Notes: a model not told the origin generated them from the sequence alone. A DNA stretch of 63,351 nucleotides from an uncultured virus (IMG/VR IMGVR_UViG_2718217648_000002) (IMGVR_UViG_2718217648_000002:62001-125351); one strand, 5' to 3'; counted from the first letter of the stretch, positions 1,333 to 60,479 are shown. Numbers and translations are program-made.

Positions 1333-1402
1333 GGATTCTTATTGTGCCGGTTCATATAAAATACGAATTTTAAACAGATAAGGGTTCCTTAAAAAATAAT
1401 TA

Positions 1403-1452
1403 GAATAAAAATAAAATAAATACTTGTAATTCTGACAACTCTAATGTATATT
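1403..1452 (+). promoter_or_regulatory. sigmaA promoter of aimR with upstream SPBRE-like A-tract
   Basis: GAATAAAAATAAAAT at 1403; TTGTAA 1424-1429, 17 bp, TATATT 1447-1452. Confidence 0.7.
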
Positions 1453-1494
1453 ATAAACAAAGGGAACATTAGTTGGGAAGGGGTGTAGTAACCA

Positions 1495-2643
1495 ATGAAT
1501 CTTAAGCAGATGATTAAGAATGAATGTGAAAAAGACAACCAGCTCGCAGCGAAACTCTCAAAAATAGCAGGGTACAAAAAGGTTAATGGTTTTTACAAAT
1601 TCATCAACACCCCAGAGAAAGAAATGGACAACTTAGGCGGTTTAATTAATATTGTTAAAAGCTTGTTTCCTGATAATGAGGAGCAGCTTCTAAGTGATTA
1701 CTTCTTATCACTGGATCCCAACAAAAAATGTGCCAGACAATCTGTTGAATACTCAGATATTAATCAATGGGATACGTTAACAGACAAGATAGTGTCGAGG
1801 CTATCTAGCTCAAAAAACCTAGCAAGTCAAGAATGGGGCAATATATACAGTATACATAGAAGATTGAGCGAAAGTAAGATAAGTTTAACTGATGCAATAA
1901 GAGCAACCGGAAAGTGCAAAACAGATGAAATGTTATTTTTCTCAAATGCTATGCTGATGTATGAGTATTTGAAGGTAGGCGAATTTGGATTGATGAAAAG
2001 CACATTATCACTTCTCAATTTCAACGACTTACCCGAAGGCTTTGTGAAAGATTGCTATATGAATAGAATTTCATTATTAAATGCAAATATTTATTTAAAT
2101 GATAATGAAATTGAAAAATCTAGGTATTATTCAGAACAAGTTATTCAAAATTCAAATATAAATCGACTAAAAGTATTTGGGCATCTAACATATGGGAACA
2201 CATTAATTTTTGAAAGCTACTCTAAAGCCAAAGAGCAGTATCTTAAAGGATTGGAATTTGCTCGTGATAATGAACATCATAAATATAAGCTGCGATTAGC
2301 TCTTTGCTTTTTAAGCAACCTATGGAATAAGGATAATAAATGGCTTGACTTCGACACTGATAATATCCCTGATAAGATTGAGGTAGCATATTACTATACT
2401 AATAATAAGGAATTTAATAAAGCAGAGAAAGTAATAAATGAGCTTGAGAATATGGAATTGTACGAATATGATTCTGGGATTCTAGATTACATTAAGGGGA
2501 TTCTATACCAAAATAAGAATTATTTTTATGAAAGCACTGCAAAGTTGAAAAAATCTGGTGATAAATTATTTATCAATCTTCCATTAGCGGAGCTAAGGAA
2601 AATGGGCTGTGACGAAAAACTACTTGAATTAATCATGGTCTAA
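1495..2643 (+). CDS. aimR: Arbitrium receptor AimR (RRNPP, HTH + TPR)
   Basis: 382 aa, N-terminus NLKQMIKNECEKDNQLAAKLSKIAGY and CARQSVEY typical of AimR; immediately upstream of aimP. Confidence 0.95.
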   Translation: MNLKQMIKNECEKDNQLAAKLSKIAGYKKVNGFYKFINTPEKEMDNLGGLINIVKSLFPDNEEQLLSDYFLSLDPNKKCARQSVEYSDINQWDTLTDKIVSRLSSSKNLASQEWGNIYSIHRRLSESKISLTDAIRATGKCKTDEMLFFSNAMLMYEYLKVGEFGLMKSTLSLLNFNDLPEGFVKDCYMNRISLLNANIYLNDNEIEKSRYYSEQVIQNSNINRLKVFGHLTYGNTLIFESYSKAKEQYLKGLEFARDNEHHKYKLRLALCFLSNLWNKDNKWLDFDTDNIPDKIEVAYYYTNNKEFNKAEKVINELENMELYEYDSGILDYIKGILYQNKNYFYESTAKLKKSGDKLFINLPLAELRKMGCDEKLLELIMV

Positions 2644-2664
2644 AATTGAAGGGGGGTGAATTAA

Positions 2665-2805
2665 ATGAAAAATATTATTCTTGGAATAGTAATCTTGTTA
2701 GCAATGGCTGTTGGATTTGTTGCCGGACAGCAATCAATTGAGACAGCATCGGTAGACCATGTAGACCAGCCTGTAAAAGTTGCATCACCAAGCCGCGGGG
2801 CTTAA
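2665..2805 (+). CDS. aimP: Arbitrium pre-pro-peptide AimP, mature peptide SPSRGA
   Basis: Translated by hand: MKNIILGIVILLAMAVGFVAGQQSIETASVDHVDQPVKVASPSRGA; signal peptide and C-terminal xxxRGA; RBS GGGGGTG. Confidence 0.95.
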   Translation: MKNIILGIVILLAMAVGFVAGQQSIETASVDHVDQPVKVASPSRGA

Positions 2806-2831
2806 CTTCAAAGATAATACATAACTTGGCT

Positions 2832-2863
2832 AGACGTTTGATCCACTGGATCAGGCGTCTTTT
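2832..2863 (+). terminator. Intrinsic terminator between aimP and aimX
   Basis: AGACGTTTGATCC-act-GGATCAGGCGTCT-TTT hairpin. Confidence 0.85.
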
Positions 2864-2926
2864 CTAATTTTAAGAGAATGTTCCAGAAATTCATAATATA
2901 AAAAACAAGAACATGGGGGAATTAAA

Positions 2927-3082
2927 ATGAAAAAGCATTTCGGACAAGTACTTTCTTATGAGGATATGGCTAAGGGGTACATGGAAATGGGAGATATTAA
3001 TTTAGAAATTTCCCAGGAAGATAATCATCTTGAAAATGAAGCAGAAATGGTTAGATCAAAATATAAAGCAAAGGTATCCTAA
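2927..3082 (+). CDS. aimX: AimX, 51-aa MazE-like MazF-binding protein
   Basis: MKKHFGQVLSYEDMAKGYMEMGDINLEISQEDNHLENEAEMVRSKYKAKVS; position after aimP; GYMEMxxINL motif of the Bacillus MazE C-terminus. Confidence 0.88.
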   Translation: MKKHFGQVLSYEDMAKGYMEMGDINLEISQEDNHLENEAEMVRSKYKAKVS

Positions 3083-3901: not shown

Positions 3902-4960
3902 ATGGAAGCTCAAAAGAAAGCGTCAACACTAAGGGATTATTCAATATACAATAACATAAATAGGTGGTTTGATGAATTAGATTTAAGAAACAGGGATCGA
4001 GAAACTGGAGAAATTGAAAAGTCTAATACTAGAGCCACGTATGAAAGGCATATAAGAGAGTTTTTCAACCACTATGCTGCCAAGGATATTGAATATTTAA
4101 CTGAGAGTGACCTGGCGATTAAGAAGAGTGACCTGTATGATTATCGAACCCATTTGGCTAAAAATAAAAGCAACTCCAATTCAACAATTAACAATAAGAT
4201 TGCCGCACTGAAAAGTATGATTAAGTACCTTGAATCTGAACATGAGTGTGATGCATCTGTATTTAATTTTAGACCTCTTCCAACAGAAAAGAACCCAGCA
4301 GGCTCTTTTGAAGGAATATCTGAAGCTGATGAATTTGCTGAGGCAGCGTATGTTACTGAGCGTCAGAACAGATTAATGAAAAAGATGTTTATTTTGTTTA
4401 GTGCACGTACTGGTGGACGTAAATCAGAGGTACTTAGAGTTGGGTGGGATGATATTACTTATTCAGAAAAGCACCAATGCTATCTCGTCAACTTTAAAAA
4501 AACTAAGCAAAAAAAGGCTAGACCAGTTGGGATTTCCACTGCTTTTTATGAAGAGTTATTGCTGTTAAAGCAAGAGTATGGGGAACATGAGCTTTTATTT
4601 CATAAGTTAACAGTTGATTCAATACAGGATATGTGGAATCGCGTATGTAGAGTTATGGGCATTCCCAAAGAAAGAAAGATAACTCCGCATAGTTTACGCA
4701 ATACTGCAACAAACTTTTCTTACAGCATTAATGGTGATATTAAAAAAGTGGCAGCGTTCTCTGGCCACAGCAATATCAATACTTTAAATGACCATTATTT
4801 AGTCAATGAAAGGGATTATTCTCAAGATCCAGGGGTTTTGGTTGATCAAAAAGAAGACATGTCCTTTTTAGATGATGTTACCTTAGAGCAATATAAAGAA
4901 TTCTTTTTAAAATCAGACATGTATATACAGAATAAACTTAAAATGTTTTTGAACAAGTGA
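3902..4960 (+). CDS. yopP: Tyrosine recombinase-family protein YopP/SroD
   Basis: RTGGRKSEV, KTK, HSLR, SGH, HY motifs; synteny. Confidence 0.88.
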   Translation: MEAQKKASTLRDYSIYNNINRWFDELDLRNRDRETGEIEKSNTRATYERHIREFFNHYAAKDIEYLTESDLAIKKSDLYDYRTHLAKNKSNSNSTINNKIAALKSMIKYLESEHECDASVFNFRPLPTEKNPAGSFEGISEADEFAEAAYVTERQNRLMKKMFILFSARTGGRKSEVLRVGWDDITYSEKHQCYLVNFKKTKQKKARPVGISTAFYEELLLLKQEYGEHELLFHKLTVDSIQDMWNRVCRVMGIPKERKITPHSLRNTATNFSYSINGDIKKVAAFSGHSNINTLNDHYLVNERDYSQDPGVLVDQKEDMSFLDDVTLEQYKEFFLKSDMYIQNKLKMFLNK

Positions 4961-8725: not shown

Positions 8726-8950
8726 TTGATTAATGAACCAACTAATAATCAAATAAGAACCATGGTTTTAAAGAAATATGCAAAGCTCTTAGCGTCATGT
8801 GAAAGGTCATTGCGCAGCATAGAGAATAACGAAATAAGAATGGCAATTGGAGACCTAGATTTTGTTAAAGACAATTTAGAGGAAATACAATACATACTCC
8901 GTGATGTTGTGAATCAGCATGAATGTATTAAGAGTAAAAATAAAATTTAA
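8726..8950 (+). CDS. Hypothetical phage protein
   Basis: ORF, RBS AAGGAG, TTG start. Confidence 0.7.
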   Translation: MINEPTNNQIRTMVLKKYAKLLASCERSLRSIENNEIRMAIGDLDFVKDNLEEIQYILRDVVNQHECIKSKNKI

Positions 8951-8982
8951 GTTTTATAGAGATTAAGATAAGGGGGAATAAC

Positions 8983-9264
8983 ATGGGTGCATTAATCGCT
9001 AAGCAACCGAATGGACGGTACTGCCGATTTAGTTCAGTGGTAGACTGTCCAACGCACATAAATATGACGCGTGAAGACTATTTAAATAATTTTACTGGGA
9101 CAACAAAAGGAAGGGAAGATGCTGAAGATACACTTGCAAATTATCTCCGGCCGTTTCACGAAGTTATAAAGTGGTACACACCGCTGAACATGAGCGAAAA
9201 AGAGTTTGTGGAGGCGTTAAAAGAAATGTGTGACGAAAACCCAAAGGAGGCGCGGGAATTGTGA
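8983..9264 (+). CDS. Hypothetical phage protein
   Basis: ORF with RBS; QPNGRYCRFSSVVDCPTH motif typical of small phage proteins. Confidence 0.75.
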   Translation: MGALIAKQPNGRYCRFSSVVDCPTHINMTREDYLNNFTGTTKGREDAEDTLANYLRPFHEVIKWYTPLNMSEKEFVEALKEMCDENPKEAREL

Positions 9265-9671
9265 ACACAGCATACAGGGTGTGGGACGGCGAGCAGATGC
9301 ATTATTGGGATGATGAAGGGTTGAGCCTTACCATCAAAAATAACGGTGATTGGACTTTGAAACGTTTATACACAGATGTTTTGGTTCCCGTTGTAGACAG
9401 CACGAATAGAAACGCGGCTCTCATGTGGGGCACAGGGTTGAAGGATAAAAACGAAAAAATGATTTACGAGAAGGACGTCATAAAGTTTAAATCTGTCTAT
9501 TGCGAAAACAAGATTATAAAAGCAGTGGTCAAGTTTAGAGATTCTCTTGGGTCGTTTGTATTCAATAGGGGAGACGATCAAGACTTTTGGAGAATGGACG
9601 TATCCCTAAGTGAAATCGAAGTCATCGGAGACATTTATCAAAATCCTGAGTTATTGGAGGGCGCGGAGTGA
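9261..9671 (+). CDS. YopX-family protein
   Basis: YRVWD, TGLKDKN..IYEKD, EVIGDIYQNPELL. Confidence 0.9.
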   Translation: MNTAYRVWDGEQMHYWDDEGLSLTIKNNGDWTLKRLYTDVLVPVVDSTNRNAALMWGTGLKDKNEKMIYEKDVIKFKSVYCENKIIKAVVKFRDSLGSFVFNRGDDQDFWRMDVSLSEIEVIGDIYQNPELLEGAE

Positions 9672-9871
9672 ATGCTGAAGTAAAGCGTGTTGAATATAAG
9701 CTGTGGTACGAAGTTAAGTACGGATGGAAGCATCTCAGTTTCGGCGCCAATGATGATAAAACTGCATTGGAATACGCAGAGGAATACGCAAAAAATAACT
9801 ACCTCATAAATTATAAGGTGGAAAAAATAACGAATGAGAGATTGTTTTGGACTGAGGAGGGCGCGGAATGA
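9668..9871 (+). CDS. Hypothetical phage protein
   Basis: Translationally coupled ORF with GGAGG RBS. Confidence 0.7.
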
Positions 9872-10299
9872 GTAAGAGGTCTACCCTGTTATTAAGGAAT
9901 AGTGTGAAAGCAGGACAAAGAGAAAAATTCATTACAAATGGCATTCCCTATGATGAACTTGATACACAAATGATCAATTTAATTGATATTTTGAATTTCA
10001 TGATTGGATTGAAAACACGCCACTGTTGTTTTGGACATAAACCATATGAGGAAATTCAAGTAATGTTTGAAGAAGAAGTAAATTTAAAAGAAGATCAAAT
10101 TCTAGAGTTAGCGGAATTAGCAGGGAGAGAATGGAAAGGTCTTCAGTTAAGCTTTAGCAAATGGGCGAGATTTTCTCCATTGATGTTTAATTGGTCATTG
10201 GTACTATCGAAAAGATTTAGAGATCCAGAAGATCCAAATAAAAACCGTTAGCTAAGATCAGTTGAAGAATTCTTTGAGAGCTATGCTGCAAAGAAGTGA
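9868..10299 (+). pseudogene. Hypothetical protein with probable premature TAG at 10249-10251
   Basis: Frame continues LRSVEEFFESYAAKK to TGA 10297-10299, right before a junction motif. Confidence 0.5.
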
Positions 10300-10347
10300 T
10301 TAAAAGATGCATTTTAAACAAATAAAAATCAGAAAGGTTGATAGAAT

Positions 10348-12546: not shown

Positions 12547-12591
12547 ATTCAAGATAAAAGTAAAATTTTAAAGAGAAAGGTTGATGGGAAG

Positions 12592-12795
12592 ATGAAATTT
12601 GCACCAATGGATAAAGTTAAATTTAAAACAGCTAGCCATTTCAACAAACTTCGAACATTTAAAAAAAGAGTTCCTGAATTTGACGATCCTTTACTCGGTG
12701 ATTGCTGGGAATTTGAAGAAGATGGGTTAAAACAATTTGATTGGGAGGAGAATTACGAATTTGTCGCTAGGCCCAAACATTTTAATTGGGATTAA
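12592..12795 (+). CDS. Hypothetical phage protein
   Basis: ORF with RBS. Confidence 0.6.
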   Translation: MKFAPMDKVKFKTASHFNKLRTFKKRVPEFDDPLLGDCWEFEEDGLKQFDWEENYEFVARPKHFNWD

Positions 12796-12840
12796 AAATA
12801 GGATCTAATTGAGTTTTTAATGAAAAGGAGCTGTTATAAA

Positions 12841-13076
12841 GTGAAAGATATCCGAGTTGTTTATGACAGAAACAAAACTTTAGAAGCGGTCGTTGTCCAG
12901 TTTGGAGCTATATGTGTGAGCTAGTAGAATCGCAATTAATTGATGAAGAAACTAAAGAATTCGACGTACTTAATGATGAATATCAAGGAATTTGGAAATA
13001 TGAAAAAGGGCAACACTGCGAAGTCGAAATTTATGATGGGGTAGACAAGTGGGTTTGTCAAGCATTATTAAACTGA
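12841..13076 (+). pseudogene. Probable frameshifted small gene
   Basis: RBS AAGGAG + GTG frame stops at about 12924; another frame continues ELVESQLIDEE...QALLN to TGA. Confidence 0.4.
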
Positions 13077-13124
13077 ATAAAAAGTAAAATGTTCTTCAGA
13101 TGATATAAAGGAGGGGAAATAAAG

Positions 13125-13463
13125 ATGAGGGAATCACAATTAAGGGAAGAAAATGAAAATTTGAAAAGGCAAGTAGATCATATGAAAGAAGTCTATAAAG
13201 AAAATATGCATCTTCATATGGCAGTAAGACAAGGTGAACAGTTAAAAGCTAACCTACAAGCTTATTTACGACAAGATGACCGAGTATATAGTCCCCATTT
13301 CATTACACCAAAACAAAAACAATATATCGCAAATTTGTTCAAAAAACATGGCTTGTCTCCACTCAGTAAAGCAAAACGAAAAATAGTTAGGCGTTTTAAT
13401 GGGGGCGGTCTGCTTTCAGAGCACGAAGCACATCAAATTATACAAATGTATGAAAGAAAGTAA
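13125..13463 (+). CDS. Hypothetical phage protein
   Basis: ORF with GGAGG RBS. Confidence 0.75.
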   Translation: MRESQLREENENLKRQVDHMKEVYKENMHLHMAVRQGEQLKANLQAYLRQDDRVYSPHFITPKQKQYIANLFKKHGLSPLSKAKRKIVRRFNGGGLLSEHEAHQIIQMYERK

Positions 13464-13617
13464 TGTTAATCTTGACTTGGCTGGTTCAACTGTAAACAAG
13501 AAGGAAAGAGATTTTTAATTGTAGTTATACAGTCACAATAAAAAGACTGTTTTAAAGAAAGGGTGAGAACCGATAGTCACTTTCAAAAAACTTAGTGATC
13601 CTGAATATATTAAGCAG

Positions 13618-14521: not shown

Positions 14522-14565
14522 GCAATTACTTTAAAAGGATTATTTCAATGAAATGAGGTGGGAAT

Positions 14566-14748
14566 TTGAGTGAGAACTATAAAGATCCGAGACAAGTTGC
14601 GCTTGAGCTTGTAAAGAAAGCAAGTGATCAGATTCGCTATACCAATGATGATGAATTTACATTTGAAGTGGTTGATAAATTGGAGGAAATTGAGGATATG
14701 CTTAAGAAAGATATTGATAAAGAAAAGAAGAATTCATTGAAAAATTAG
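14566..14748 (+). CDS. Hypothetical phage protein
   Basis: ORF with GAGGTG RBS. Confidence 0.65.
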   Translation: MSENYKDPRQVALELVKKASDQIRYTNDDEFTFEVVDKLEEIEDMLKKDIDKEKKNSLKN

Positions 14749-14906
14749 TTGAAAGGATGTCGTTAGCATAGGATACATCAAATACATAATTGATACAGCC
14801 TGGTTTAACTTAGTTTGGTTTAAGTGGCATCTTGGAGCGGATATAAGCATATTTGATGGCTGCGGATGGAATACATATAAATATTTAAAGGGTAAAAATA
14901 AAATAA

Positions 14907-15804: not shown

Positions 15805-15893
15805 TATCTTACCCAAAAGTGTGAACGCATGACAGCAAGAAAAAGGTTTAGTCTACATAAAATCGTGATTTTAAACAGAATAGGAGGAAACGA

Positions 15894-16738: not shown

Positions 16739-16778
16739 ATAAAAGATAATTTTTAATCAGTTATTAGGAGGAAACGAA

Positions 16779-20375: not shown

Positions 20376-20864
20376 GTGGAGAGAATGAGAGATATTAAAT
20401 TTCAGGCGTTGGTAGTTAAACATACATTAAGCAATTTGGGTTCTAATATGCATTGGGCAGGTATAGACAGTTACGAAGAAATTATTGATGTTCATGACAT
20501 TTCTTTTGATAACGGAAAAATAGATTACGTTACAGATAAAGACGGTGATGAATTTTCGTTTGCTGATAAAAGTTTGAAATCGGTTCGACAATACACCGGA
20601 TTGAAGGACAATAACGGCAAGGAGATTTATGAAGGGGATATAATTCGGATTACTTTCGACACCACATGGGCTGAAGAACCTTATTACGTTGGAGAAGTTA
20701 AATTCTTGGATAGCGAAAACTATCCAGCATTTGATTTAAGGCCTTGGATTGATTGTGAGATGAATGCTTTGAGTTGGTTAAAAAGCGAATCAGACCCGAC
20801 TGTCATCAGTTATGAAGTAATCGGTAATATTTACGAAGATACTGAGCTTTTCGAATCTAAATAA
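20376..20864 (+). CDS. YopX-family protein
   Basis: MRDIKF, QYTGLKD..GKEIYEGDI, EVIGNIYE. Confidence 0.9.
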   Translation: MERMRDIKFQALVVKHTLSNLGSNMHWAGIDSYEEIIDVHDISFDNGKIDYVTDKDGDEFSFADKSLKSVRQYTGLKDNNGKEIYEGDIIRITFDTTWAEEPYYVGEVKFLDSENYPAFDLRPWIDCEMNALSWLKSESDPTVISYEVIGNIYEDTELFESK

Positions 20865-20909
20865 AACAGAGATTTTATAAGGATAAAAATAAAATTAAAA
20901 AGGGGAAAT

Positions 20910-22079: not shown

Positions 22080-22532
22080 ATGAGAGAAATCAAGTTTCGA
22101 GGAATGGGCATCAACGGAGAATGGTATTACGGCAATTTATCAATCATTAAGCAAAGAATCAAGAGTATGGGTATTGATCCTGGTTCTTATATCTCTAATA
22201 AAGCTGGTGTTCCATTTGCTTACAGTGTCAGGCCGGAAACAGTTGGGCAATACACCGGATTAAAAGACAAAAACGGCCGAGAGATTTATGAGGGGGATAT
22301 TTTAAAAAGAACAGTCACGGTTGTCATGTACGGTTCAGGCAAACCACCTAAAGATATTGATGAATACTTAGAAGTTGAGTATCGGGAAGATTATGCGGGC
22401 TTCTATATCGGAGAAAGGCCACTGTTTGCTTATGTGGACAATACTCGTGATGTCGATACTGGCTGCAGATGCAGCAAAGCAGAAGTCATCGGCAACATTT
22501 ACGAAGATCCTGAGCTTATAGAGTCTAAATAA
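22080..22532 (+). CDS. YopX-family protein
   Basis: MREIKFRG, PETVGQYTGLKDKNG, EVIGNIYE. Confidence 0.9.
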   Translation: MREIKFRGMGINGEWYYGNLSIIKQRIKSMGIDPGSYISNKAGVPFAYSVRPETVGQYTGLKDKNGREIYEGDILKRTVTVVMYGSGKPPKDIDEYLEVEYREDYAGFYIGERPLFAYVDNTRDVDTGCRCSKAEVIGNIYEDPELIESK

Positions 22533-22565
22533 AAACGATATTTAACCAGATAGGGAGATGTTTAA

Positions 22566-22943
22566 ATGACTTCAGAAGAAGCAAGAAATTATTTTGTGCA
22601 AAAGGGACTTAGTTATGAAGACATTACGGAGGGAGATATTTGTGCTTTAGTTATGCTACTCAATAAGCATGTTAAACAGGCAGTTAAAGCACATACAATG
22701 TCTGTTGATACAATGAGAATGAGTCAGAAAATAAAAAGCAAATACAAAACAAATGGAACTTTAAAAAGTTGTTATCTTTACATAAACAGTCACTATTTTA
22801 CTCAAAGAGAAGCAATTAGTTTTAATCCAGATGGTTTTATTGGTTTCGCAGGGTGGGCAGATTCAGGCAATAGACAACCTATAATTAGTGCTTTTACTGA
22901 ATGGGTTGATTATATGAGTGAACAGTTAAGACAAATCAGTTAA
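22566..22943 (+). CDS. Hypothetical phage protein
   Basis: YFTQREAISFN.DGFIGFAGWAD motif. Confidence 0.8.
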   Translation: MTSEEARNYFVQKGLSYEDITEGDICALVMLLNKHVKQAVKAHTMSVDTMRMSQKIKSKYKTNGTLKSCYLYINSHYFTQREAISFNPDGFIGFAGWADSGNRQPIISAFTEWVDYMSEQLRQIS

Positions 22944-23039
22944 AAGTAATTTTTTATTTAAGGGGGTGATAACGATGTGATCGATTTATATGATTTGAGT
23001 TTTAAAAATAAAACAAAAATAAAAAGGAGTGGTTATTAA

Positions 23040-25603: not shown

Positions 25604-25641
25604 ATAAAACTGTAGTTTTAACAAGTTTAGGAGATGGATAT

Positions 25642-35468: not shown

Positions 35469-36190
35469 TATGCATCGCCATTAAGAGTAAAAATAAAATT
35501 AAAACACACATTTTCAAGTCTGTTTATGGTATGATGATTTTGATTCCCTTAACCACTTTTTCTTACATAAGTTATGAGCAACATTTACATAAAACAGAGG
35601 GAAATGAAGACTCAATAAAAGAATCATTTTATAAGAAGCCTAGACAGATTAGGATACCATCAAGTGAGAATATTGTCTTACGGCTATTTAAAAAAGCTCA
35701 AACTAACAAAGAACAGCAATTAAAAAGGCATACAGAGAAGATTATCTCAGCAAAACTCATTAAACCTAAGCAAAGTAAAAAAAGGCACAGGAAGGGAGGT
35801 GAGACGGTAAAGCATAAACTTTTTAAGAGTAAAAATAAAATTAGTATTAAAGAAAAAGAAAACAAGCCACCGGCCGCAAAGAAAACCATCCAGGTTAAGC
35901 TGAGTGCTTATATTGCCCACTGCCAAGAAGGATGCACAGGAACAACTAGAACAGGTGTTGATGTCACTCAATCAATCTATTACAAAGGGTATCGTGTTAT
36001 TGCAACCGACCCTAGTGTTATTCCCTTGAATTCAATAGTTGAAGTAAGCATTGGTGGGAAAAAGTTCAAAGCAATTGCAATTGATACTGGAGGAGCAATT
36101 GTTGGAAATAAAGTGGACTTGCTTGTAGCAACCGAGCGTGACGCAATTAATTTTGGCAAGCAAAAGGGGACAATCTCAATTATTAGTTAG
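35465..36190 (+). CDS. yorM: 3D-domain (lytic transglycosylase-like) protein YorM
   Basis: SAY..C.GC.GTT.TG, IATDPSVIPL, DTGGAI.GNKVD. Confidence 0.85.
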   Translation: MICIAIKSKNKIKTHIFKSVYGMMILIPLTTFSYISYEQHLHKTEGNEDSIKESFYKKPRQIRIPSSENIVLRLFKKAQTNKEQQLKRHTEKIISAKLIKPKQSKKRHRKGGETVKHKLFKSKNKISIKEKENKPPAAKKTIQVKLSAYIAHCQEGCTGTTRTGVDVTQSIYYKGYRVIATDPSVIPLNSIVEVSIGGKKFKAIAIDTGGAIVGNKVDLLVATERDAINFGKQKGTISIIS

Positions 36191-37650: not shown

Positions 37651-37998
37651 CTAACGTGCTTCTACTGTAATTTTATAAATCACATAATTGTCGTTAATGT
37701 CATACGCGTAAACCAATGCTGTGCCCAAAGTTGAATGAGAGGATACGACACCACTGGAACTAATGCTTATAAGGTTGCTTCCAGATACAATTTCCCATCG
37801 GGTGTAGCCTTTTAATAGAGATACGTTAGAATTCCTCAGCATGTGAAAATCAACTGTACCAAGCGGATCACCTAGCTGCTTAACTTGATCAATTGATTTG
37901 ACAGGGGTTAAAGCAGAAGCCTGTGATGTGAATGCAGGGAGTGCTAGTGCTGTAAGCAATAGAGCAGAAACAATCAATCCTTTGTAAAACTTTTTCAT
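37651..37998 (-). CDS. Secreted protein with Ig-like domain (moron)
   Basis: Sec signal ending ASA; W.IVSG...ISSSGVV. Confidence 0.75.
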   Translation of the reverse strand: MKKFYKGLIVSALLLTALALPAFTSQASALTPVKSIDQVKQLGDPLGTVDFHMLRNSNVSLLKGYTRWEIVSGSNLISISSSGVVSSHSTLGTALVYAYDINDNYVIYKITVEAR

Positions 37999-38123
37999 AA
38001 GAATTACCTCCTAGGTTTTGATTGTGATTACATCTCCAGTCTAGCATGTTAAATATTTGAAATGTGTGAAGTGTTTGTGAAACTGTTTAAAATATCTCTT
38101 TTAAAGAGAAAGGGGAGACTGTA

Positions 38124-38675: not shown

Positions 38676-38715
38676 TCTAAATAAAAGATCAATTTTATCG
38701 AAATGAGGGTGTGAA

Positions 38716-38994
38716 ATGGAAGTTAGATGGTTAGTTATTTTTAATGATTGTAAAACCGGCAGTTCTTTGAGTGAGCTTACATATAGTAAGGATGGGGAAG
38801 GAAACCACCTAAGATTAGAGTCAATGGTGCCTCGTACAGGTGACTATATTGTAGGAGGAGATCTGTCATCAGATATAAATGATAAGAGGTGCTTTATTGT
38901 GAAAAATGTCTTCTGGAATCTAGATAGGAGAGATATAGAGGTTTATCTAGATGAGGTTGACAGGACTGTTTTTCCTTTATATAAATCGCTATAA
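38716..38994 (+). CDS. Hypothetical phage protein
   Basis: ORF between two junction motifs. Confidence 0.7.
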   Translation: MEVRWLVIFNDCKTGSSLSELTYSKDGEGNHLRLESMVPRTGDYIVGGDLSSDINDKRCFIVKNVFWNLDRRDIEVYLDEVDRTVFPLYKSL

Positions 38995-39031
38995 AATTTG
39001 TCTTTTAAAGAGTAAAAATAAAATATAAGAG

Positions 39032-39536: not shown

Positions 39537-39722
39537 ATAATTAGGGATACTGCCAGGGATATCATTAATAATGACGTTGATGAGATTGAGGAAATATTAG
39601 ATAAGCTTTGGGTTTATTTAGAGAACAATTTAAGGCCAGAGGATAACCGTATATGGAAGAGGTGTGATTCGGATATTTTGGCAGCAACAGTAAAGCTAAG
39701 AAATTTAAAAGAAACTTTTTAA
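39537..39722 (+). CDS. 61-aa protein with ATA/ATT start
   Basis: GGAGG RBS then IIRDTARDIINNDVDEIEEILDKLW...KETF. Confidence 0.55.
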   Translation: MIRDTARDIINNDVDEIEEILDKLWVYLENNLRPEDNRIWKRCDSDILAATVKLRNLKETF

Positions 39723-39983: not shown

Positions 39984-40029
39984 GAGTAAAAATAAAATAT
40001 TCCTTTTATCGAGAATGGAGAGATGCTAA

Positions 40030-40574: not shown

Positions 40575-41048
40575 ATGGAAACATTAGATGCACCAATTTA
40601 TGAGATTAAGCAAGAAAGCAATTGGTATAAAACTGAGAAGAAACGAAGAGAAGATATTAACAAATTCTTTGATGAATTCGAAGCAACATACGGAATTAAG
40701 AATGGTTTTTCGTTCTATCATTCCGAGTATTTCGGAGTACGCGCAGGAACAGAAGCATATGACTTCTTTAAAGATGAAGTGGTGAAAAACCCCACAAAAG
40801 CTGGCTTCTATGCATTTAAAAAACGTTCTAAGTATTTCACAGACATAAGGTCTATGCTAGAGAAAATAGAAGAGGCAAATCCTTTCAAAGGCCATGATGT
40901 GTTCGGGAGAAATAATATAACTGCAAGCCAGTGGGTAGGTGATAGATGGTTTTTTGGCGTAAGAGATGAGAAACGTGTAGAAGGTGAAGAAGCTGTAGCT
41001 ATTGACTTCAAAGATTATCTTAAAATTATCTTGGAGAAATTAGGTTAA
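40575..41048 (+). CDS. Hypothetical phage protein
   Basis: ORF with AAGGAG RBS. Confidence 0.75.
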   Translation: METLDAPIYEIKQESNWYKTEKKRREDINKFFDEFEATYGIKNGFSFYHSEYFGVRAGTEAYDFFKDEVVKNPTKAGFYAFKKRSKYFTDIRSMLEKIEEANPFKGHDVFGRNNITASQWVGDRWFFGVRDEKRVEGEEAVAIDFKDYLKIILEKLG

Positions 41049-41079
41049 AATTCAATTTTTATAAAGAAAGGAGAAAAAC

Positions 41080-42725: not shown

Positions 42726-42767
42726 AGTCTAAATGAAAGTTTTATTTTATTGAAAGGATGAAGAAGA

Positions 42768-43061: not shown

Positions 43062-43105
43062 GTCGTAATAAAAGGATGATTTTAGAGAGAAAAGGAGGAA
43101 TAGCT

Positions 43106-45048: not shown

Positions 45049-45172
45049 GGAAGGTAGATACAAAACTCTGGAGTATGTTTTGAGTAAAACGATTGATCCA
45101 TACATTGATAAACCAAAACAGGCTACAGTTATTTCTAGATAAAATCACAGTTTCAAAGGAAGGGGAAGCAAA

Positions 45173-51993: not shown

Positions 51994-52115
51994 AAACAAG
52001 CGAAATTGTGATGACTAAAGTTGATAAAGATCTTAGGGATACCAAAGGGTGTCGATTGAACGAACATCTCTATAAAAGAAGACTTTTATTTAAAATAAAG
52101 AGGAGGAAACAGACC

Positions 52116-56281: not shown

Positions 56282-56602
56282 TTGCAACAAAAAGAGCAAG
56301 AATTGCTGTCAAAGAAAGAACAGCTTGAAATTGATGTTTTAGAAAAGGAAGCAGCTTTACTCCGGCTAGAAGTGGAACAAGAAGATTCCAATCTCCACAA
56401 AATTGGGGAGATCGGTGTACTTAAAGAATTTCTTTTATACATAAAGAAATACAGATCAATGTTTACTGTGCAGCAAGCAGAAGAATTTAGAAATATGGAT
56501 GACCGAATGAAAGAAATCATCAAAGTCCAGGTTGGACAAGTAATGGTTGATGAAGAAGCTTTAGAGGGATTTATTGAGGAAATTGAGAATCAAATTAATT
56601 GA
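56282..56602 (+). CDS. Hypothetical phage protein
   Basis: GGAGGTG RBS. Confidence 0.7.
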   Translation: MQQKEQELLSKKEQLEIDVLEKEAALLRLEVEQEDSNLHKIGEIGVLKEFLLYIKKYRSMFTVQQAEEFRNMDDRMKEIIKVQVGQVMVDEEALEGFIEEIENQIN

Positions 56603-56954: not shown

Positions 56955-57093
56955 GTAAAATCTGTATTTTAAAGAGAAGGTGATGCAGTGAAAGAGTCGT
57001 TGAAGAATGATTTTCAAGAGTTTATGAGTATTGCAAAAAGCTTTCTTGCTGTTTCTGGAGCAGTCTTTTGGTTATTGATAATTTCACTCGTTT

Positions 57094-57752: not shown

Positions 57753-58583
57753 ATGAAAATCGATTATGTTTCAGATCTGCATATTAATCACTGGATACCT
57801 TGGGACAATGACCAAATTAAATGGGAAAGGCGAACAAGGGAGATTATTAGAAGGCTGATATCGAATGGAAATGGAGAGGTATTAATCATTGCCGGTGATT
57901 TTACTGAGTGGAATCAACAGACACTGTGGGTACTTGATGAAGTAGCAAAGCAGTATGAAAAGGTTTACTTCACATATGGTAATCATGATCTTTATTTACT
58001 CAGTAAAAATCAGCAACGAAAATATTCCGATTCATTGGGAAGGGTGAATGATTTAATTCAGAAGGCTACAGACATCAATAATGTCACTCCATTAATAAAG
58101 TCTACGGATACATACAAAGGGAAAGTCTTTGCAGGAGATGTTATGTGGTATCTTCCAAAAGGAAATGAAGGATGGGATTTCTTCAAAGGTGTCTCTAATG
58201 ATTCAAACTATATCAGCCTTAATGGATACAGCAAAGAAGATGGGGTACGAGCAATGTGGAAAGAATCAATGGGCTGGTATGACACTCTTGAAAACTCTCA
58301 CATTGATGTATTTGTCTCACATGTTCCACCTGTTCACAATCCTTATTCTCCGTTTGAGCCTAACAGCTGCTATATGGTTGATGTCCCGTTCATTAACGCA
58401 AAACATTGGGTTTGTGGTCATGATCATTTACAAGCTGAGTTTGACAATGATGGAACGAGCTTTCACATGAACTGCATTGGATATCCATATGACTATGATA
58501 TGTATCCTAGAGTAAATGAGATACCAGGTAAGCAAGTTGATACGTATAAAACGTTTGAGCTGAAGACATTTGAAATCAAATGA
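57753..58583 (+). CDS. yotB: Calcineurin-like metallophosphoesterase
   Basis: SDLH, AGD, GNHD, SH.PP, GHDH. Confidence 0.85.
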
Positions 58584-58616
58584 AATTCTAATTTTATACA
58601 GAAGGGAGAAAGTAAA

Positions 58617-58829
58617 ATGTCTAATGTGAAAATTAAATATGTTACAGACTGTCATGACAAAGAGTTTACATTAAATAAAAAATATGATTTTCGTATAACC
58701 GATGATGGTATTGAAATCATTGATGATTTAGGTGAAGAACATATCATTGCAACTAAAGACAATGAATATGGGGCTTATGAACACGATGAATTTTTCAGAT
58801 CAAGATTTGAATTTGTTGATACTGAATAA
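58617..58829 (+). CDS. Hypothetical phage protein
   Basis: ORF between two junction motifs. Confidence 0.7.
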   Translation: MSNVKIKYVTDCHDKEFTLNKKYDFRITDDGIEIIDDLGEEHIIATKDNEYGAYEHDEFFRSRFEFVDTE

Positions 58830-58861
58830 AATGTTGATTTCATTTAGAAGGGATAAGTTCA

Positions 58862-59017
58862 ATGAAAGAGATTGAATTTGATGAAGTTAAGAAATTTGTT
58901 GAAGTAATGTCTAGAGAATTTAGATCAACAAAGATGATGAAAATTAAAATTAGCTATGCTGAATGGTTAGTTGATGAAGTTGAACGATTAAGGGGGTTAG
59001 TCAAAAGTGAGCAATAG
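58862..59017 (+). CDS. 51-aa hypothetical protein
   Basis: MKEIEFDEV...WLVDEVERL. Confidence 0.55.
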   Translation: MKEIEFDEVKKFVEVMSREFRSTKMMKIKISYAEWLVDEVERLRGLVKSEQ

Positions 59018-59552
59018 TTTAGAGAGAAAGATTAATATTCATTTCAGTAATGGCTCACATATCGAGTCTAAACAACTTTCTAATAAACTAAGGGGGTACA
59101 ATAGCAATTTCTTATGGGAGCAAATGCAAGAGAGTATCACAAAGGAACTTAAATGGTGGGGAGTCACTCTAACTGGAAATCAGAAAACTGTAAAAGCTTT
59201 AAGTGAGCTAATGACCATTAACAAAACATTGTTTGAGAACCTTTATAAGGTGCAATCAGACACCATAGAAGAGCTTGCAAACAAATTATATGAACAGGTT
59301 CCTGAGTATGAGAAGAAGTTTTTGAAGTTTGTCAATGAACAGATACCTAATCTGAGGATGTGCCTACAGTTCGAGCTACCTTATAATCCTCAACTAATAT
59401 CCAGCATAGAATATGAAATTTACATATCCGGTGCCGAAATTGATTGCGAATACCCACATGATGCTAGGGATTGCATTATTACTTTCTTTCAACGGATACC
59501 AGAAATAATCGGTTCATACAAGGAGGAATTAGATGAAGAATACAGAGTTTAA
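59007..59552 (+). CDS. Hypothetical phage protein
   Basis: ORF in operon. Confidence 0.7.
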   Translation: MSNSLERKINIHFSNGSHIESKQLSNKLRGYNSNFLWEQMQESITKELKWWGVTLTGNQKTVKALSELMTINKTLFENLYKVQSDTIEELANKLYEQVPEYEKKFLKFVNEQIPNLRMCLQFELPYNPQLISSIEYEIYISGAEIDCEYPHDARDCIITFFQRIPEIIGSYKEELDEEYRV

Positions 59553-60081
59553 GGTAACAAGTTTATTAGAGGAGTATAAACGAAGAGATGAGGAACGTAG
59601 GGAATTCATCATTCATGAAGGCTACAGAGCTATCGAAGAGATCATTAAAGAAGTGAACCAAAGAGGATCACTAAATGAAGCAGATATTTATTATGGAACA
59701 CCTAAACCACAGTTAAGCTTCTCGGACGTCGAATTAGGCTACATGCTTACTTCTATGATGGAATATGCTACAAATCATGTTGGAAATCCAGTTGATGAGG
59801 AATGTGAACTTGAAAATAAGCTGGCTTACTTTGAGCATAAGGACGAAATTGTTCAAGTTTTTGAAGTATATGGACAAGGTACTGACAGCTGGTTTTTGAA
59901 ACCAAGTGACGATACCGTTTATAAATTGAATAACACAGCTTACGGAGTGTATTTAAACCAGTTCGATGATTTCATTAATTACACTAAAAATAAAGACAAT
60001 GAGAGTAAAAAGGTTTCTTATGGTACCACGATCTTAAATGACATTGCCGGCGGATATACAGTTGGAAGAGGTTCTAAGTAG
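59533..60081 (+). CDS. Hypothetical phage protein
   Basis: AGGAGG RBS; YGQG motif. Confidence 0.75.
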   Translation: MKNTEFKVTSLLEEYKRRDEERREFIIHEGYRAIEEIIKEVNQRGSLNEADIYYGTPKPQLSFSDVELGYMLTSMMEYATNHVGNPVDEECELENKLAYFEHKDEIVQVFEVYGQGTDSWFLKPSDDTVYKLNNTAYGVYLNQFDDFINYTKNKDNESKKVSYGTTILNDIAGGYTVGRGSK

Positions 60082-60252
60082 ATGATCGTTACAGCTTGGA
60101 TTTTGTTTGTTGCATTTGGGCTTGTTTTGTTAGCAAGAATGGATTCCGAAGGGAATCTTAAATTTGCAGTGTATATTGGTGTAATTAAATTTGTTTCAGT
60201 TTTCATTGTTGCCATTGCAGCAGGAGTGATTTGGGGAGGGTTATTTCAATGA
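60082..60252 (+). CDS. 56-aa membrane protein
   Basis: [14 protein letters not shown]...IWGGLFQ. Confidence 0.6.
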
Positions 60253-60413
60253 TAAAGAGGATTATGAGTTTTAAGTTTGACGACTGGAGACATATTTTCT
60301 ACTTATTAAAAAGTGTAGCGAAGAATTTCTTTAAAGGTGATTTTCATGAAGCGAGCGATGCACTTTATTGGATACGGGTACACTTGTCTTTTGAATCAAA
60401 TAAGGTGAAGTGA
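60249..60413 (+). CDS. Small hypothetical protein
   Basis: ATGA-coupled to previous gene; GGGAGG RBS. Confidence 0.55.
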
Positions 60414-60479
60414 ACATTAGATAAAATCGGTCATTTATTTAGAGTAAAAATAAAATTAGATGATTAGAGGTGGAGAGTA

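What the first reader, a model, noticed from the sequence alone, without database searches (positions are those of the whole stretch)
1357..60437. About 26 TRAAA-N6-TTTYA palindromes at accessory-gene junctions: possible integron-like cassette array
Seen: 19 perfect and 7 one-mismatch copies, almost all between an upstream stop (often the TAA/TGA is the left arm: 20862, 22530, 22941, 38992, 41046, 58581, 58827) and the next RBS. They often have TCTA[A/G/C]A to the left and AAGAGAAAGG-like sequence to the right. The 6-bp spacers all differ (TACGAA, TTTAAG, GATGCA, GTAAAA, AGACTG, TCGTGA, GATAAT, CAGAGA, GTAATT, CTGTAG, TATCTC, GATCAA, TTTGTC, TATTCC, TTCAAT, GGATGA, GAAGAC, TCTGTA...). Several single genes are bracketed on both sides (10348, 22566, 38124, 38716, 42768, 58617). 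I saw none at junctions of the aim/sro, replication or nrd operons; one copy is inside yorM (35616). A rough independent-base estimate (about 35% A, 30% T) gives about 1 perfect copy by chance. Established: inverted arms around a 6-8 bp spacer is the tyrosine-recombinase core layout, and Tn916-type integrases tolerate non-matching 6-bp coupling sequences. Inference: these are crossover scars of site-specific cassette insertion that diversifies the accessory genome.
Basis: partly seen in the sequence, partly recalled or inferred. Interest (0 to 1): 0.85.

Follow-up and report, generated by a model that had tools for sequence, protein, structure and literature searches.

The report
Addressed gene-junction palindromes in SPbeta-like phage
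A short mirror-image DNA word sits between many accessory genes of this SPbeta-like Bacillus phage, each copy with its own six-base centre, and related phages have swapped gene blocks at these copies, so they look like built-in joints for gene exchange rather than an integron.

Summary
TRAAA-N6-TTTYA occurs 26 times in the window against 2.8 expected. The exact arms are enriched only at a spacing of 6: 20 copies, against 0-4 at every other spacing.

The palindrome extends to TCTnnnTAAAA-N6-TTTTAnnnAGA, an 11-6-11 layout. Its mirrored outer positions do not co-vary and it folds weakly. It therefore reads as a double-stranded site for a paired protein, not a hairpin.

It is not the SroF/MrpR operator. 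A second repeat in the window, TTAAGAATAAAAATAAAAT, matches the published phi3T SroF box.

Relatives keep each copy's six-base centre in the same order while neighbouring genes differ. Homology blocks end at the dyad edges. Dyad junctions are block boundaries in 75% of informative comparisons, against 47% for adjacent and 31% for distant junctions. One address shows 16 left/right flank combinations in 17 prophages.

Still, 70-77% of junction boundaries lie at dyad-free junctions. Gene families stay at their address, and no enzyme is shown. The verdict is crossover joints, not an integron. This scan reached the same reading on at least eight other SPbeta-like genomes.

The parts
1357..1372 (.). 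dyad, centre TACGAA, upstream of the aimR promoter region
   Evidence: The address is found only in G among the 7 genomes. HSPs with 17 close relatives start at 1335-1356.
8941..8956 (.). dyad, centre TTTAAG; overlaps a SroF-type box on its left
   Evidence: HSPs with 21 close relatives end at 8961-8994.
10301..10316 (.). dyad, centre GATGCA
   Evidence: The address is present in 7 of 7 genomes. Both flanks are unrelated in L064.
12555..12570 (.). dyad, centre GTAAAA
   Evidence: The address is in 6 of 7 genomes. Against L064 the left flank is 64/70 identical and the right flank 28/70.
13539..13554 (.). dyad, centre AGACTG
   Evidence: The address is in 7 of 7 genomes. Against L068 the left flank is 67/70 identical and the right flank 25/70.
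14532..14547 (.). dyad (right arm TTTCA), centre GGATTA
   Evidence: Shared with BUCT082. HSP starts fall at 14530-14532.
15858..15873 (.). dyad, centre TCGTGA
   Evidence: Shared with BUCT082. A boundary cluster lies at 15850-15878.
16740..16755 (.). dyad, centre GATAAT
   Evidence: The other genomes carry the one-base variant GATAGT next to the same upstream gene family.
20862..20877 (.). dyad, centre CAGAGA; its TAA is the stop of ORF 20385-20864; followed by a SroF-type box
22530..22545 (.). one-mismatch dyad (right arm TTTAA), centre ACGATA
   Evidence: The same address is a perfect dyad in SPBc2, Goe11, Goe13 and BUCT082.
22941..22956 (.). dyad, centre GTAATT; its TAA is the stop of ORF 22566-22943
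   Evidence: The address is in 5 of 7 genomes.
25605..25620 (.). dyad, centre CTGTAG
35616..35631 (.). dyad, centre GAATCA, inside the yorM-like ORF as called; two SroF-type boxes lie beside it (35488, 35830)
   Evidence: Shared with BUCT082.
38088..38103 (.). dyad, centre TATCTC
   Evidence: The address is also in phi3T and SPR.
38682..38697 (.). dyad, centre GATCAA
   Evidence: The address is in 6 of 7 genomes, and both flanks are unrelated in all 5 comparisons. In IMG/VR, 17 SPbeta-like loci show 16 left/right flank combinations.
38992..39007 (.). dyad, centre TTTGTC; its TAA is the stop of ORF 38716-38994; followed by a SroF-type box
   Evidence: In SPBc2 the pair GATCAA/TTTGTC brackets mtbP instead of a 92-aa ORF.
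39706..39721 (.). dyad, centre GAAACT, followed by a SroF-type box and a promoter-like site
39993..40008 (.). dyad, centre TATTCC, overlapping a SroF-type box on its left
   Evidence: The address is in 7 of 7 genomes.
41046..41061 (.). dyad, centre TTCAAT; its TAA is the stop of ORF 40575-41048
   Evidence: The address is in 7 of 7 genomes.
42734..42749 (.). dyad (left arm TGAAA), centre GTTTTA
   Evidence: The address is in 7 of 7 genomes, and both flanks are unrelated in all 6 comparisons.
43069..43084 (.). dyad, centre GGATGA
   Evidence: The address is in 6 of 7 genomes.
45140..45155 (.). dyad (right arm TTTCA), centre TCACAG
52073..52088 (.). dyad, centre GAAGAC, followed by a strong Shine-Dalgarno sequence
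   Evidence: It falls 'inside' an ORF only by my rough start-codon call.
56326..56341 (.). pattern match inside ORF 56282-56602 without the flank consensus; probably a chance copy
56956..56971 (.). dyad, centre TCTGTA
   Evidence: The address is in 5 of 7 genomes.
58581..58596 (.). dyad (left arm TGAAA, which is the stop of ORF 57753-58583), centre TTCTAA
   Evidence: The address is in 6 of 7 genomes.
58827..58842 (.). dyad (right arm TTTCA), centre TGTTGA; its TAA is the stop of ORF 58617-58829
   Evidence: The address is in 4 of 7 genomes.
60422..60437 (.). one-mismatch dyad (right arm ATTTA), centre TCGGTC, followed by a SroF-type box
   Evidence: The address is a perfect dyad in the 6 other genomes.

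Best explanation
The TAAAA-N6-TTTTA elements are a real family of about 35-40 sites per SPbeta-like genome. Their arms extend to an 11-6-11 dyad. They lie on double-stranded DNA in the gap between a stop codon and the next ribosome-binding site.

The shared arms and strict spacing point to a paired (dimeric) DNA-binding protein that has not been identified. Each junction keeps its own six-base centre, so each copy offers 16-22 bp of sequence unique to that junction but shared by all related phages.

My committed reading is that these copies act as fixed crossover joints, or module linkers. When two related phages or prophages meet, exchange between same-address copies swaps the gene block between two joints without breaking genes or changing gene order.

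I take the exchange itself to be short-homology recombination or annealing at the conserved island, possibly helped by the bound protein. This is the way PeSLs work in T4-type phages.

**Shown:** the family, its geometry, its conservation and its coincidence with block boundaries.

**Inferred:** that a protein binds, that crossovers occur inside the dyad, and which machinery performs them.
For: **Enrichment.** Enrichment is confined to spacing 6. The same holds in all 5 relatives tested by pattern, with 34-40 copies against 2-5 for a reversed control. It also holds in all 13 further IMG/VR loci, with 9-14 copies at spacing 6 against 0-3 at other spacings.

**Protein-site character.**
- The TCT/AGA outer symmetry is present.
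- Mirrored positions show no pairwise complementarity above shuffles. The mean RNA fold of the 28-mers is -1.6 kcal/mol.
- In 128 collinear pairs the arms are 98.6-98.8% identical and the centre 97.9%, against 92-95% for the flanks.

**Addresses.**
- Seven genomes carry 81 distinct centres, none twice within a genome, in syntenic order.
- Of 71 window-versus-relative pairs sharing a centre, 50 have no detectable similarity in either 150-nt flank, 20 on one side only, and 1 on both.
- By neighbouring protein family the split is 39/22/1 of 62.

**Boundaries.**
- Perfect-dyad junctions are homology boundaries in 477 of 639 informative junction-genome pairs (75%).
- The figure is 486 of 1044 (47%) for the junctions next to them and 1110 of 3568 (31%) for distant ones.
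- Junctions with only a SroF box, a longer conserved repeat, reach 83 of 181 (46%). Dyad-only junctions reach 432 of 586 (74%).
- Of 287 blocks arriving from the left, 130 end at +11 to +27. Of 311 leaving to the right, 185 start at -12 to +4.

**Close relatives.** Blocks at 94-98% identity are bounded by dyads inside a 71-72% backbone.

**One address at scale.** For the address at 38682, 17 SPbeta-like IMG/VR loci show 9 left classes, 9 right classes and 16 combinations.

**Short homology is feasible.** One of 9 crossovers in laboratory phi3Ts x SPbeta hybrids maps to a 39-bp shared stretch.
Against: - Most block boundaries at gene junctions are not at dyads. The share is 1596 of 2073 (77%) with perfect dyads and 1442 of 2073 (70%) allowing one mismatch.
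- Among 28 close relatives, 143 of 395 boundaries lie at dyads, 177 at other junctions and 66 inside genes.
- Sixteen to 22 bp is very short for homologous recombination.
- None of the 9 crossovers in laboratory hybrids can be placed in an isolated dyad. All lie in shared stretches of 39 bp to 18 kb, although several of those stretches begin or end at a dyad.
- No binding protein is identified.
- The junction-genome pairs are phylogenetically dependent, so the P values overstate the evidence.
- Gene calls are my own rough model.
- Short-homology exchange alone does not easily explain why the centre is conserved above flank level.
Confidence: 0.45

Rival explanations
1. The dyads are core-type sites of a conservative site-specific recombinase of the tyrosine type. 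Candidates are phage YopP, the recombinase at the yomM locus, or the host Xer pair. Two subunits bind the 11-bp arms, and strands are exchanged across the 6-bp centre, which must match between partners. Each centre then acts as an orthogonal address, and related phages undergo a natural form of recombinase-mediated cassette exchange.
For: - The layout is 11-6-11 with strictly 6 bp between the arms.
- The centre is conserved above flank level.
- No centre occurs twice in a genome.
- Islands of 16 bp sit amid unrelated DNA on both sides.
- Dyads are stronger boundary marks than the longer SroF boxes.
- Every genome examined encodes tyrosine-recombinase homologues of unknown role.
  - YopP matches PF00589 at E 3e-14.
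  - G's allele has R, H-x-x-R, H and Y by my reading of the alignment.
  - A second PF00589 protein lies at G:19763-20740.
Against: - YopP alleles at 100/76/33/32% identity go with identical arms.
- SPbeta-type YopP and YomM carry Lys where the second catalytic Arg is expected.
- G has no YomM orthologue.
- A 5-N6-5 dyad is equally typical of ordinary dimeric regulators (recalled, not tested).
- Uniqueness of 38 centres is expected by chance, with roughly 0.3 duplicates expected by my estimate.
- Laboratory hybrids give no crossover resolved to a dyad.
- Many boundaries lie elsewhere.
Confidence: 0.25
2. The dyads are only operators or organising sites for a phage or host DNA-binding protein, for example the ParB/Srx-like second repressor YopQ/SroE. 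On this reading their coincidence with block boundaries is a by-product. They sit in the variable regions, and selection keeps only recombinants that break between genes.
For: - The geometry and lack of pairing co-variation fit a dimeric site.
- The arms are under purifying selection.
- YopQ matches DndB. Brady et al. call it ParB_N_Srx-like (passages of PMC8612738).
- A preprint calls SroE a second repressor with unknown action (passages).
- Boundaries are common at dyad-free junctions too.
Against: - This does not explain why a copy keeps its own centre when the genes on both sides are replaced.
- It does not explain why blocks end at the dyad's far edge from both sides.
- It does not explain the excess over immediately adjacent junctions and over SroF-box junctions.
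- The dyad is not tied to a gene family. Only 52% of copies of families that ever have it at the 5' side carry it, and 58% at the 3' side.
Confidence: 0.15
3. This is the first reader's reading: an integron-like array in which single-gene cassettes are inserted by a recombinase. The palindromes are the scars, and non-matching coupling sequences are tolerated as in Tn916.
For: Several single genes are bracketed by two copies. In SPBc2, mtbP lies between the same two addresses that bracket a 92-aa ORF here.
Against: - The centres match between phages at each junction.
- Families stay at their address.
- There is no attC-like folding or co-variation.
- Copies are dispersed on both strands over 125 kb.
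- No empty, tandem or circular forms were seen. I had no data that could show circles.
Confidence: 0.03
4. The element acts in RNA, as a small hairpin, an RNase site or a translation signal just upstream of the Shine-Dalgarno sequence.
For: The element sits 16-36 nt before start codons in 19 of 26 copies. It is co-oriented with genes in the late region as well.
Against: - There are no compensatory changes. TGAAA never pairs with TTTCA in the window.
- Mirrored outer positions are not complementary above chance, and folding is weak.
- There is no Rfam match.
- Contigs from two RNA libraries run across six dyads, but contigs cannot show RNA ends.
- Gene families occur with and without the dyad.
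Confidence: 0.04

Closest known systems
PeSLs (promoter-early stem-loops) of T4-type phages (Arbiol et al. 2010, PMC2839356; abstract read)
   Same: Both are short conserved elements between non-essential genes in the variable regions. Both mark where related phages have inserted, deleted or replaced genes, so exchange between copies shuffles modules.
   Different: - PeSLs are a sigma-70 promoter plus a terminator stem-loop. These dyads have neither: there is no stable fold and RNA-library contigs run through them.
- PeSL copies resemble one another, so nearby copies can recombine into mini-circles.
- Here every copy has a private centre, so only the same junction in another genome matches.
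dif/pdif sites and dif modules of Acinetobacter plasmids (Mindlin et al. 2019, PMC6449649; abstract read)
   Same: Both are 28-bp sites with 11-bp arms and a 6-bp centre (the dif layout is recalled). Multiple copies lie in accessory regions and flank adaptive genes.
   Different: - pdif arms are two different half-sites for XerC and XerD (recalled). Here the arms are symmetric.
- pdif modules move between plasmids. Here genes stay at their address.
- Dependence on Xer was not tested here.
Integron attC sites and gene cassettes
   Same: Both involve imperfect palindromes at the borders of mostly single, promoter-less genes.
   Different: - attC sites are 57-141 bp and conserved in folded structure (recalled). 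These are 16-28 bp and conserved in sequence, with no pairing co-variation.
- There is no attI-integrase platform.
- There is no cassette mobility between positions.
Heterospecific lox/FRT sites used for recombinase-mediated cassette exchange (recalled; no paper read)
   Same: Arms are identical while centres differ and are mutually incompatible. Only like centres recombine, and a segment between two different sites is exchanged as a cassette.
   Different: That is an engineered use of Cre and Flp. No recombinase is shown to act here.
SPBRE / SroF (MrpR, YopR) operator of SPbeta-like phages (PMC10516654, passages; bioRxiv 10.1101/2025.11.27.690993, passages)
   Same: Both are multi-copy intergenic elements of the same phages. 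One often lies directly beside a dyad.
   Different: - The operator is a different sequence: a 24-26-bp asymmetric box read by a monomer.
- In this window it is the repeat TTAAGAATAAAAATAAAAT. The exact core TAAAAATAAAA occurs 25 times on the + strand and never on the - strand.
- It is a weaker boundary mark than the dyad.
Botstein's module 'linker' sequences and lambdoid boundary sequences (recalled; not read)
   Same: The idea is the same: short conserved sequences between functional modules guide exchange among related phages.
   Different: Those were postulated, or are sporadic homologies. Here there is one strict palindromic family with about 80 distinguishable addresses.

Membership tests
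Integron (attC/attI/IntI) | One array of cassettes downstream of an integrase gene with attI and a common promoter | tested here: not met
   The 38 copies are spread over the whole 125-kb genome on both gene orientations. There is no copy inside the aimR-to-yopR block that holds the XerC-like gene.
Integron (attC/attI/IntI) | attC is a long imperfect palindrome conserved as a folded single strand | tested here: not met
   The core is 16 bp, or 28 bp extended. Mirrored positions outside the 5-bp arms are complementary no more often than in shuffles. The mean fold is -1.6 kcal/mol.
Integron (attC/attI/IntI) | Cassettes are mobile: the same gene is found at different positions | tested here: not met
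   38 of 46 downstream and 32 of 44 upstream gene families always sit at the same address. Most exceptions are one-base variants of the address.
Tyrosine-recombinase core site (lox/FRT/dif type) | Inverted arms of about 11-13 bp around a 6-8-bp centre | tested here: met
   The consensus is TCTnnnTAAAA-N6-TTTTAnnnAGA. The spacing is strictly 6.
Tyrosine-recombinase core site (lox/FRT/dif type) | Partner sites share the centre sequence | tested here: met
   The same centre is at the same junction in up to 7 of 7 genomes. The centre is 97.9% identical in collinear pairs against 93-95% for flanks. This is a correlation only.
Tyrosine-recombinase core site (lox/FRT/dif type) | A cognate recombinase binds and cleaves the site | not testable with these tools
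   Candidate genes exist. Their divergence does not track the arms. Some alleles have Lys at the second Arg.
PeSL (T4-type) | Promoter plus terminator stem-loop | tested here: not met
   There is no stable hairpin. Promoter-like sites are not enriched in 36-46 kb: 25 against 35.8 in shuffles. Contigs from RNA libraries span six dyads.
PeSL (T4-type) | Marks insertion, deletion and replacement boundaries between related phages | tested here: met
dif module (Xer-dependent) | Asymmetric XerC and XerD half-sites; similarity to the host dif | not tested
   The arms are symmetric in consensus.
SPBRE / SroF operator | Matches the published box sequence | tested here: not met
   The SPbeta promoters named in PMC10516654 share a different motif. 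The phi3T box printed in the preprint is the reverse complement of the window's other repeat.

The most novel reading that the evidence does not exclude
The dyads are sites of a conservative site-specific recombinase whose 6-bp overlap must match. Roughly 80 different centres would then form an orthogonal address code, and SPbeta-like phages would practise natural recombinase-mediated cassette exchange. Any two relatives could swap the block between two addresses precisely, even when the surrounding DNA is unrelated. The enzyme would be an orphan tyrosine recombinase of the phage (YopP or the yomM-locus gene) or the host Xer pair.
Probability: 0.25. Interest if true: 0.9.

Novelty: new variant of a known kind. 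Interest (0 to 1): 0.7.

Why it matters
How phages trade genes without breaking them is an old question. Modular-evolution theory postulated linker sequences at module borders, but clear examples are few; PeSLs are the main one.

Here a strict, easily recognised element marks dozens of junctions in SPbeta, a genetically tractable model phage of Bacillus subtilis. Each copy carries a private centre that is kept across the whole phage group. That makes the question directly testable with crosses, centre mutations and gene deletions.

If an enzyme reads the centres, this would be a natural addressed cassette-exchange system. It would also be a source of orthogonal recombination sites.

I found no description of the element in print.
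- Four full-text searches found nothing.
- Term searches inside two SPbeta overviews found nothing.
- The original 1999 genome paper is not in the library and I could not check it.
- The SPBc2 record annotates none of the copies as such. Two annotated stem-loops overlap copies: 2622-2651 and 116406-116431.

Tried and rejected
- **SPBRE/MrpR operator.** Rejected. The ten SPbeta promoters named in PMC10516654 share AAATACAAAwAATATGTATA-like sequence, not the dyad.
- **YonO promoter.** Rejected. YonO transcribes the late genes from one start upstream of yonK (passages of PMC5467207).
- **Known RNA family.** There are no Rfam matches at gathering score in the window.
- **Hairpin.** There is no co-variation and the folds are weak.
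- **RNA evidence.**
  - Two RNA libraries (X1, X2) hold an identical prophage as contigs. Single contigs span the dyads at 38682, 38992, 41046, 42734, 43069 and 45140. Contigs cannot show RNA ends, and DNA carry-over is not excluded.
  - The two raw-read runs (X21, X24) laid no read, so there is no test.
  - The two joints reported there (39027>39717, 39998>45866) link copies of the SroF-type repeat with 20-nt sides. I take them as assembly artefacts.
- **PDB sequence search with YopP.** No match at E 0.001.
- **Host or cellular genomes.** The genome-contig scan with a YopP alignment confirmed no relative. So I tested neither host-chromosome background nor similarity to the host dif.
- **Co-variation between YopP clade and arm sequence.** None was found, because the arms are the same in all clades reached. 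No relative below 32% identity was found.
- **Laboratory hybrids.** The crossovers are not resolvable to dyads.
- **Chance hits in IMG/VR.** Of 79 loci with the 16-mer of 38682 and full flanks, 62 are unrelated viral contigs. These are chance occurrences and I left them out of the flank count.
- **Not run.** I did not run structure prediction, complex prediction or the large protein searches. None could show DNA binding.

Full report
**What the window is.** The window is bases 62001-125351 of a 125,351-bp phage genome, G000. It is related in mosaic fashion to Bacillus phage SPbeta/SPBc2, phi3T and their kin, at about 80% identity over a third or less of a 10-kb probe. It runs from the arbitrium/sro block through the accessory, replication and nrd regions. 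That block holds AimR, a XerC-like YopP, a DndB-like YopQ and an MrpR-like protein.

- TRAAA-N6-TTTYA matches 26 times, against 2.83 (sd 1.64, maximum 8) in dinucleotide shuffles.
I conditioned on every TAAAA (347) and TTTTA (197) in the window and varied the gap. Gap 6 gives 20 pairs, and gaps 0-30 otherwise give 0-4. SPBc2 gives 34 against 0-5.
- One-mismatch copies as a class are at background, with 19 at gap 6 against 8-35 elsewhere. About eight are intergenic with the right flanks, including 22530 and 60422.
- The whole genome has 38 copies. The late-region copies have flanks in the opposite orientation, following the genes.

**Anatomy.**
- A position-by-position count shows that the palindrome is longer than 16 bp. 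T, C, T at -6 to -4 mirror A, G, A at +19 to +21. The first centre base is T or G in 23 of 26 copies.
- The unit is therefore 11-6-11, or 28 bp.
- By my own rough gene model, 19 of 26 copies end 16-36 nt before the next start codon. Sixteen of 26 begin within -7 to +13 of the upstream stop, and 6 use the stop as the left arm.
- In effect the intergenic gap is the dyad plus the Shine-Dalgarno sequence. The 'AAGAGAAAGG' on the right is that ribosome-binding site.

**DNA site, not a hairpin.**
- Over 87 distinct oriented addresses from seven genomes, none of the twelve mirrored position pairs outside the arms is complementary more often than in column shuffles. Two are significantly less so.
- The three centre pairs are at chance. 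The 28-mers fold at a mean of -1.6 kcal/mol, and 41% are above -1.
- TGAAA never co-occurs with TTTCA in the window.
- A symmetric consensus without site-wise pairing is what two identical protein subunits reading double-stranded DNA would give.
- There is no Rfam match.

**Not the known repressor operator.**
- The MrpR (YopR/SroF) paper identifies SPBRE at ten promoters (passages). Those promoters share a different sequence.
- While checking spacings I found a second repeat, TTwAGAr-TAAAAATAAAAT. Its exact core occurs 25 times on the + strand of the window and never on the - strand.
- A 2025 preprint prints the 26-bp box of phi3T SroF. Its reverse complement is this repeat.
- G's SroF is 77% identical to phi3T's and 31% to SPbeta's. 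G, phi3T and BUCT082 carry 26, 20 and 19 such boxes, against 4-6 in SPbeta-type genomes.
- That explains the second repeat and several of the 'TTTAGAG/AAGAG' right flanks. It also leaves the dyad without a known binder.

**Addresses.**
- I assembled six further genomes: SPBc2, phi3T, SPR, Goe11, Goe13 and BUCT082. The five scanned by pattern have 34-40 copies against 2-5 for a reversed control, and SPBc2 has 36.
- Together with G there are 81 different centres. No centre occurs twice in a genome, and shared centres are in the same order.
- Fourteen of G's centres recur in SPBc2, often as 16-bp islands.
- I scored 150-nt flanks by local alignment against the 99th percentile of 1474 random flank pairs. 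All 492 same-centre pairs split as follows: 174 alike on neither side, 169 on one side and 149 on both. The 71 pairs involving the window split 50/20/1.
- By the protein family of the neighbouring genes, the window pairs split 39/22/1 of 62.
- An unbiased search for exact words of 16 nt or more shared with unrelated flanks recovers two classes apart from scattered chance words: the dyads and the SroF boxes.

**Are the dyads where blocks break?**
- I used blastn blocks between all genome pairs and classed every gene junction as spanned, boundary or absent.
- Perfect-dyad junctions are boundaries in 477 of 639 informative cases (75%).
- Junctions immediately next to them are boundaries in 486 of 1044 (47%), and all others in 1110 of 3568 (31%).
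- Junctions carrying only a SroF box reach 46%, against 74% for dyad-only junctions. So a conserved intergenic repeat is not enough by itself.
- Block ends pile up at the far edge of the dyad from both sides. The dyad therefore belongs to both neighbouring blocks.
- Twenty-eight close relatives from IMG/VR have YopP 76-100% identical. Among them, 143 of 395 block ends (19 of 79 clusters) fall at dyads, 177 at other junctions, 66 inside genes and 9 at SroF boxes.
- Examples from that set:
  - Against L068 the sequence is 67/70 identical up to 13539 and 25/70 after it.
  - Against L064 it is 64/70 identical before 12555 and 28/70 after.
  - The copy at 10301 is intact in L064 with both flanks unrelated.
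  - Blocks 10324-12576 and 12548-13562 are 94-98% identical to relatives whose backbone is 71-72% identical.
- For one address (38682), 17 SPbeta-like IMG/VR loci show 9 left classes, 9 right classes and 16 combinations. Sixty-two other hits were chance occurrences in unrelated contigs and were left out.

**What speaks against a special mechanism.**
- Most boundaries at junctions lie at dyad-free junctions: 70-77%.
- Some dyad-free junctions recur in many relatives, for example 14742-14774 in 20 loci and 9851-9900 in 14.
- Four laboratory hybrids of phi3T(s) and SPbeta show nine parental switches. All lie within stretches identical in both parents, of 39 bp to 18 kb.
- Several of these stretches start or end at a dyad, among them a 1404-bp dyad-to-dyad mtbP block. 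No switch can be pinned to an isolated dyad.
- The pair counts are not phylogenetically independent.

**Not an integron.**
- Gene families keep their address: 38 of 46 and 32 of 44. Most exceptions are one-base variants of the centre, which shows that centres drift with their surroundings.
- A family that has a dyad in one genome has it in only 52% (5' side) or 58% (3' side) of its copies. The dyad is a property of the junction, not of a cassette.
- In 128 collinear pairs the flanks are 92-95% identical, the arms 98.6-98.8% and the centre 97.9%. This suggests that the centre matters too, but the events are few and dependent.

**Candidate proteins.**
- YopP is a XerC-like protein of unknown role and a core gene of the group (passages).
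- G's allele has the Arg, His-x-x-Arg, His and Tyr expected of an active enzyme. The SPbeta-type allele, 33% identical, has His-x-x-Lys. These assignments are my reading of the alignment, not a structural test.
- YomM also has Lys there. G lacks a YomM orthologue but has another PF00589 protein at the same place, outside the window.
- Loci with YopP at 100, 76, 33 and 32% identity all carry the same arms and many of the same addresses.
- The binder is therefore more likely a conserved phage protein or a host protein than a fast-evolving sro-operon allele.
- YopQ/SroE is ParB/Srx- or DndB-like and is called a second repressor with unknown action. It is another candidate.

**RNA.** Two RNA libraries hold an identical prophage. 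Their contigs cross six dyads, which fits polycistronic read-through but cannot show ends. Raw-read runs laid nothing.

**Verdict.**
- The family, its geometry and its link to block boundaries are real.
- I read the dyads as protein-bound junction linkers at which same-address copies recombine (0.45).
- A true site-specific, address-reading recombinase is the bolder alternative (0.25).
- A purely regulatory site is third (0.15).
- The integron reading (0.03) and the RNA reading (0.04) are unlikely.
- This scan noted the same element on at least eight other SPbeta-like genomes and came to a similar reading.
  - the adjacent-junction and SroF-box controls;
  - the laboratory-hybrid test;
  - the identification of the second repeat;
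  - the lack of co-variation with YopP.

Noticed in passing
window, 25 sites on the + strand, e.g. 1406, 3149, 8645, 26654, 35488, 35830, 39013, 39726, 55067, 55157, 60445: The repeat TTwAGAr-TAAAAATAAAAT is the reverse complement of the published 26-bp SroF box of phi3T. It sits upstream of -35/-10-like hexamers at some sites (aimR, sro operon, yorE-like). At others it lies directly before a Shine-Dalgarno sequence with no promoter. G has 26 boxes against 4-6 in SPbeta-type genomes.
   Followed up: partly
window 37651-37998 (- strand): This 115-aa ORF has no Pfam match. Its bin (37671-38004) has by far the highest contig depth in two RNA libraries of a strain carrying an identical prophage. 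The depths are 6659 and 17114, against 2-500 in the surrounding bins. It may be a gene expressed from the prophage.
   Followed up: no
G000 C1 19763-20740 (- strand), outside the window: A 325-aa tyrosine recombinase (PF00589, E 5e-21, with H-x-x-R and Y) occupies the place of SPbeta yomM beside the dyad with centre GAGGGA. It is not an orthologue of YomM.
   Followed up: partly
window 3902-4960 and SPBc2 yopP: YopP, YopQ and SroF each come in two allele classes, phi3T-type and SPbeta-type, that are 31-41% identical. The SPbeta-type YopP and YomM have Lys where the second catalytic Arg of tyrosine recombinases is expected.
   Followed up: partly
window 9634-9671 and 9851-9900: A different short junction sequence covers the overlap of ribosome-binding site, stop and start (GGAGGGCGCGGAGTGA). 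It is shared with four genomes amid unlike flanks. Blocks end there in 14 close relatives, so dyad-free linkers exist too.
   Followed up: no
window 2004 and 2809-2827: In six close relatives homology breaks inside aimR and resumes after aimP. This looks like a swap of the receptor end and peptide (arbitrium specificity).
   Followed up: no
window 26733-35468: The replication block has no ORF near the size of SPbeta yorL (3918 bp). The largest ORFs here are 573 and 493 aa. I did not check what replaces it.
   Followed up: no
SPBc2 113664-115059 versus phi3Ts: A 1404-bp block holding the methyltransferase mtbP is identical in SPbeta and phi3Ts. It is bounded by the dyads GATCAA and TTTGTC, while the DNA outside differs. 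In the window the same two dyads bracket a 92-aa ORF.
   Followed up: partly
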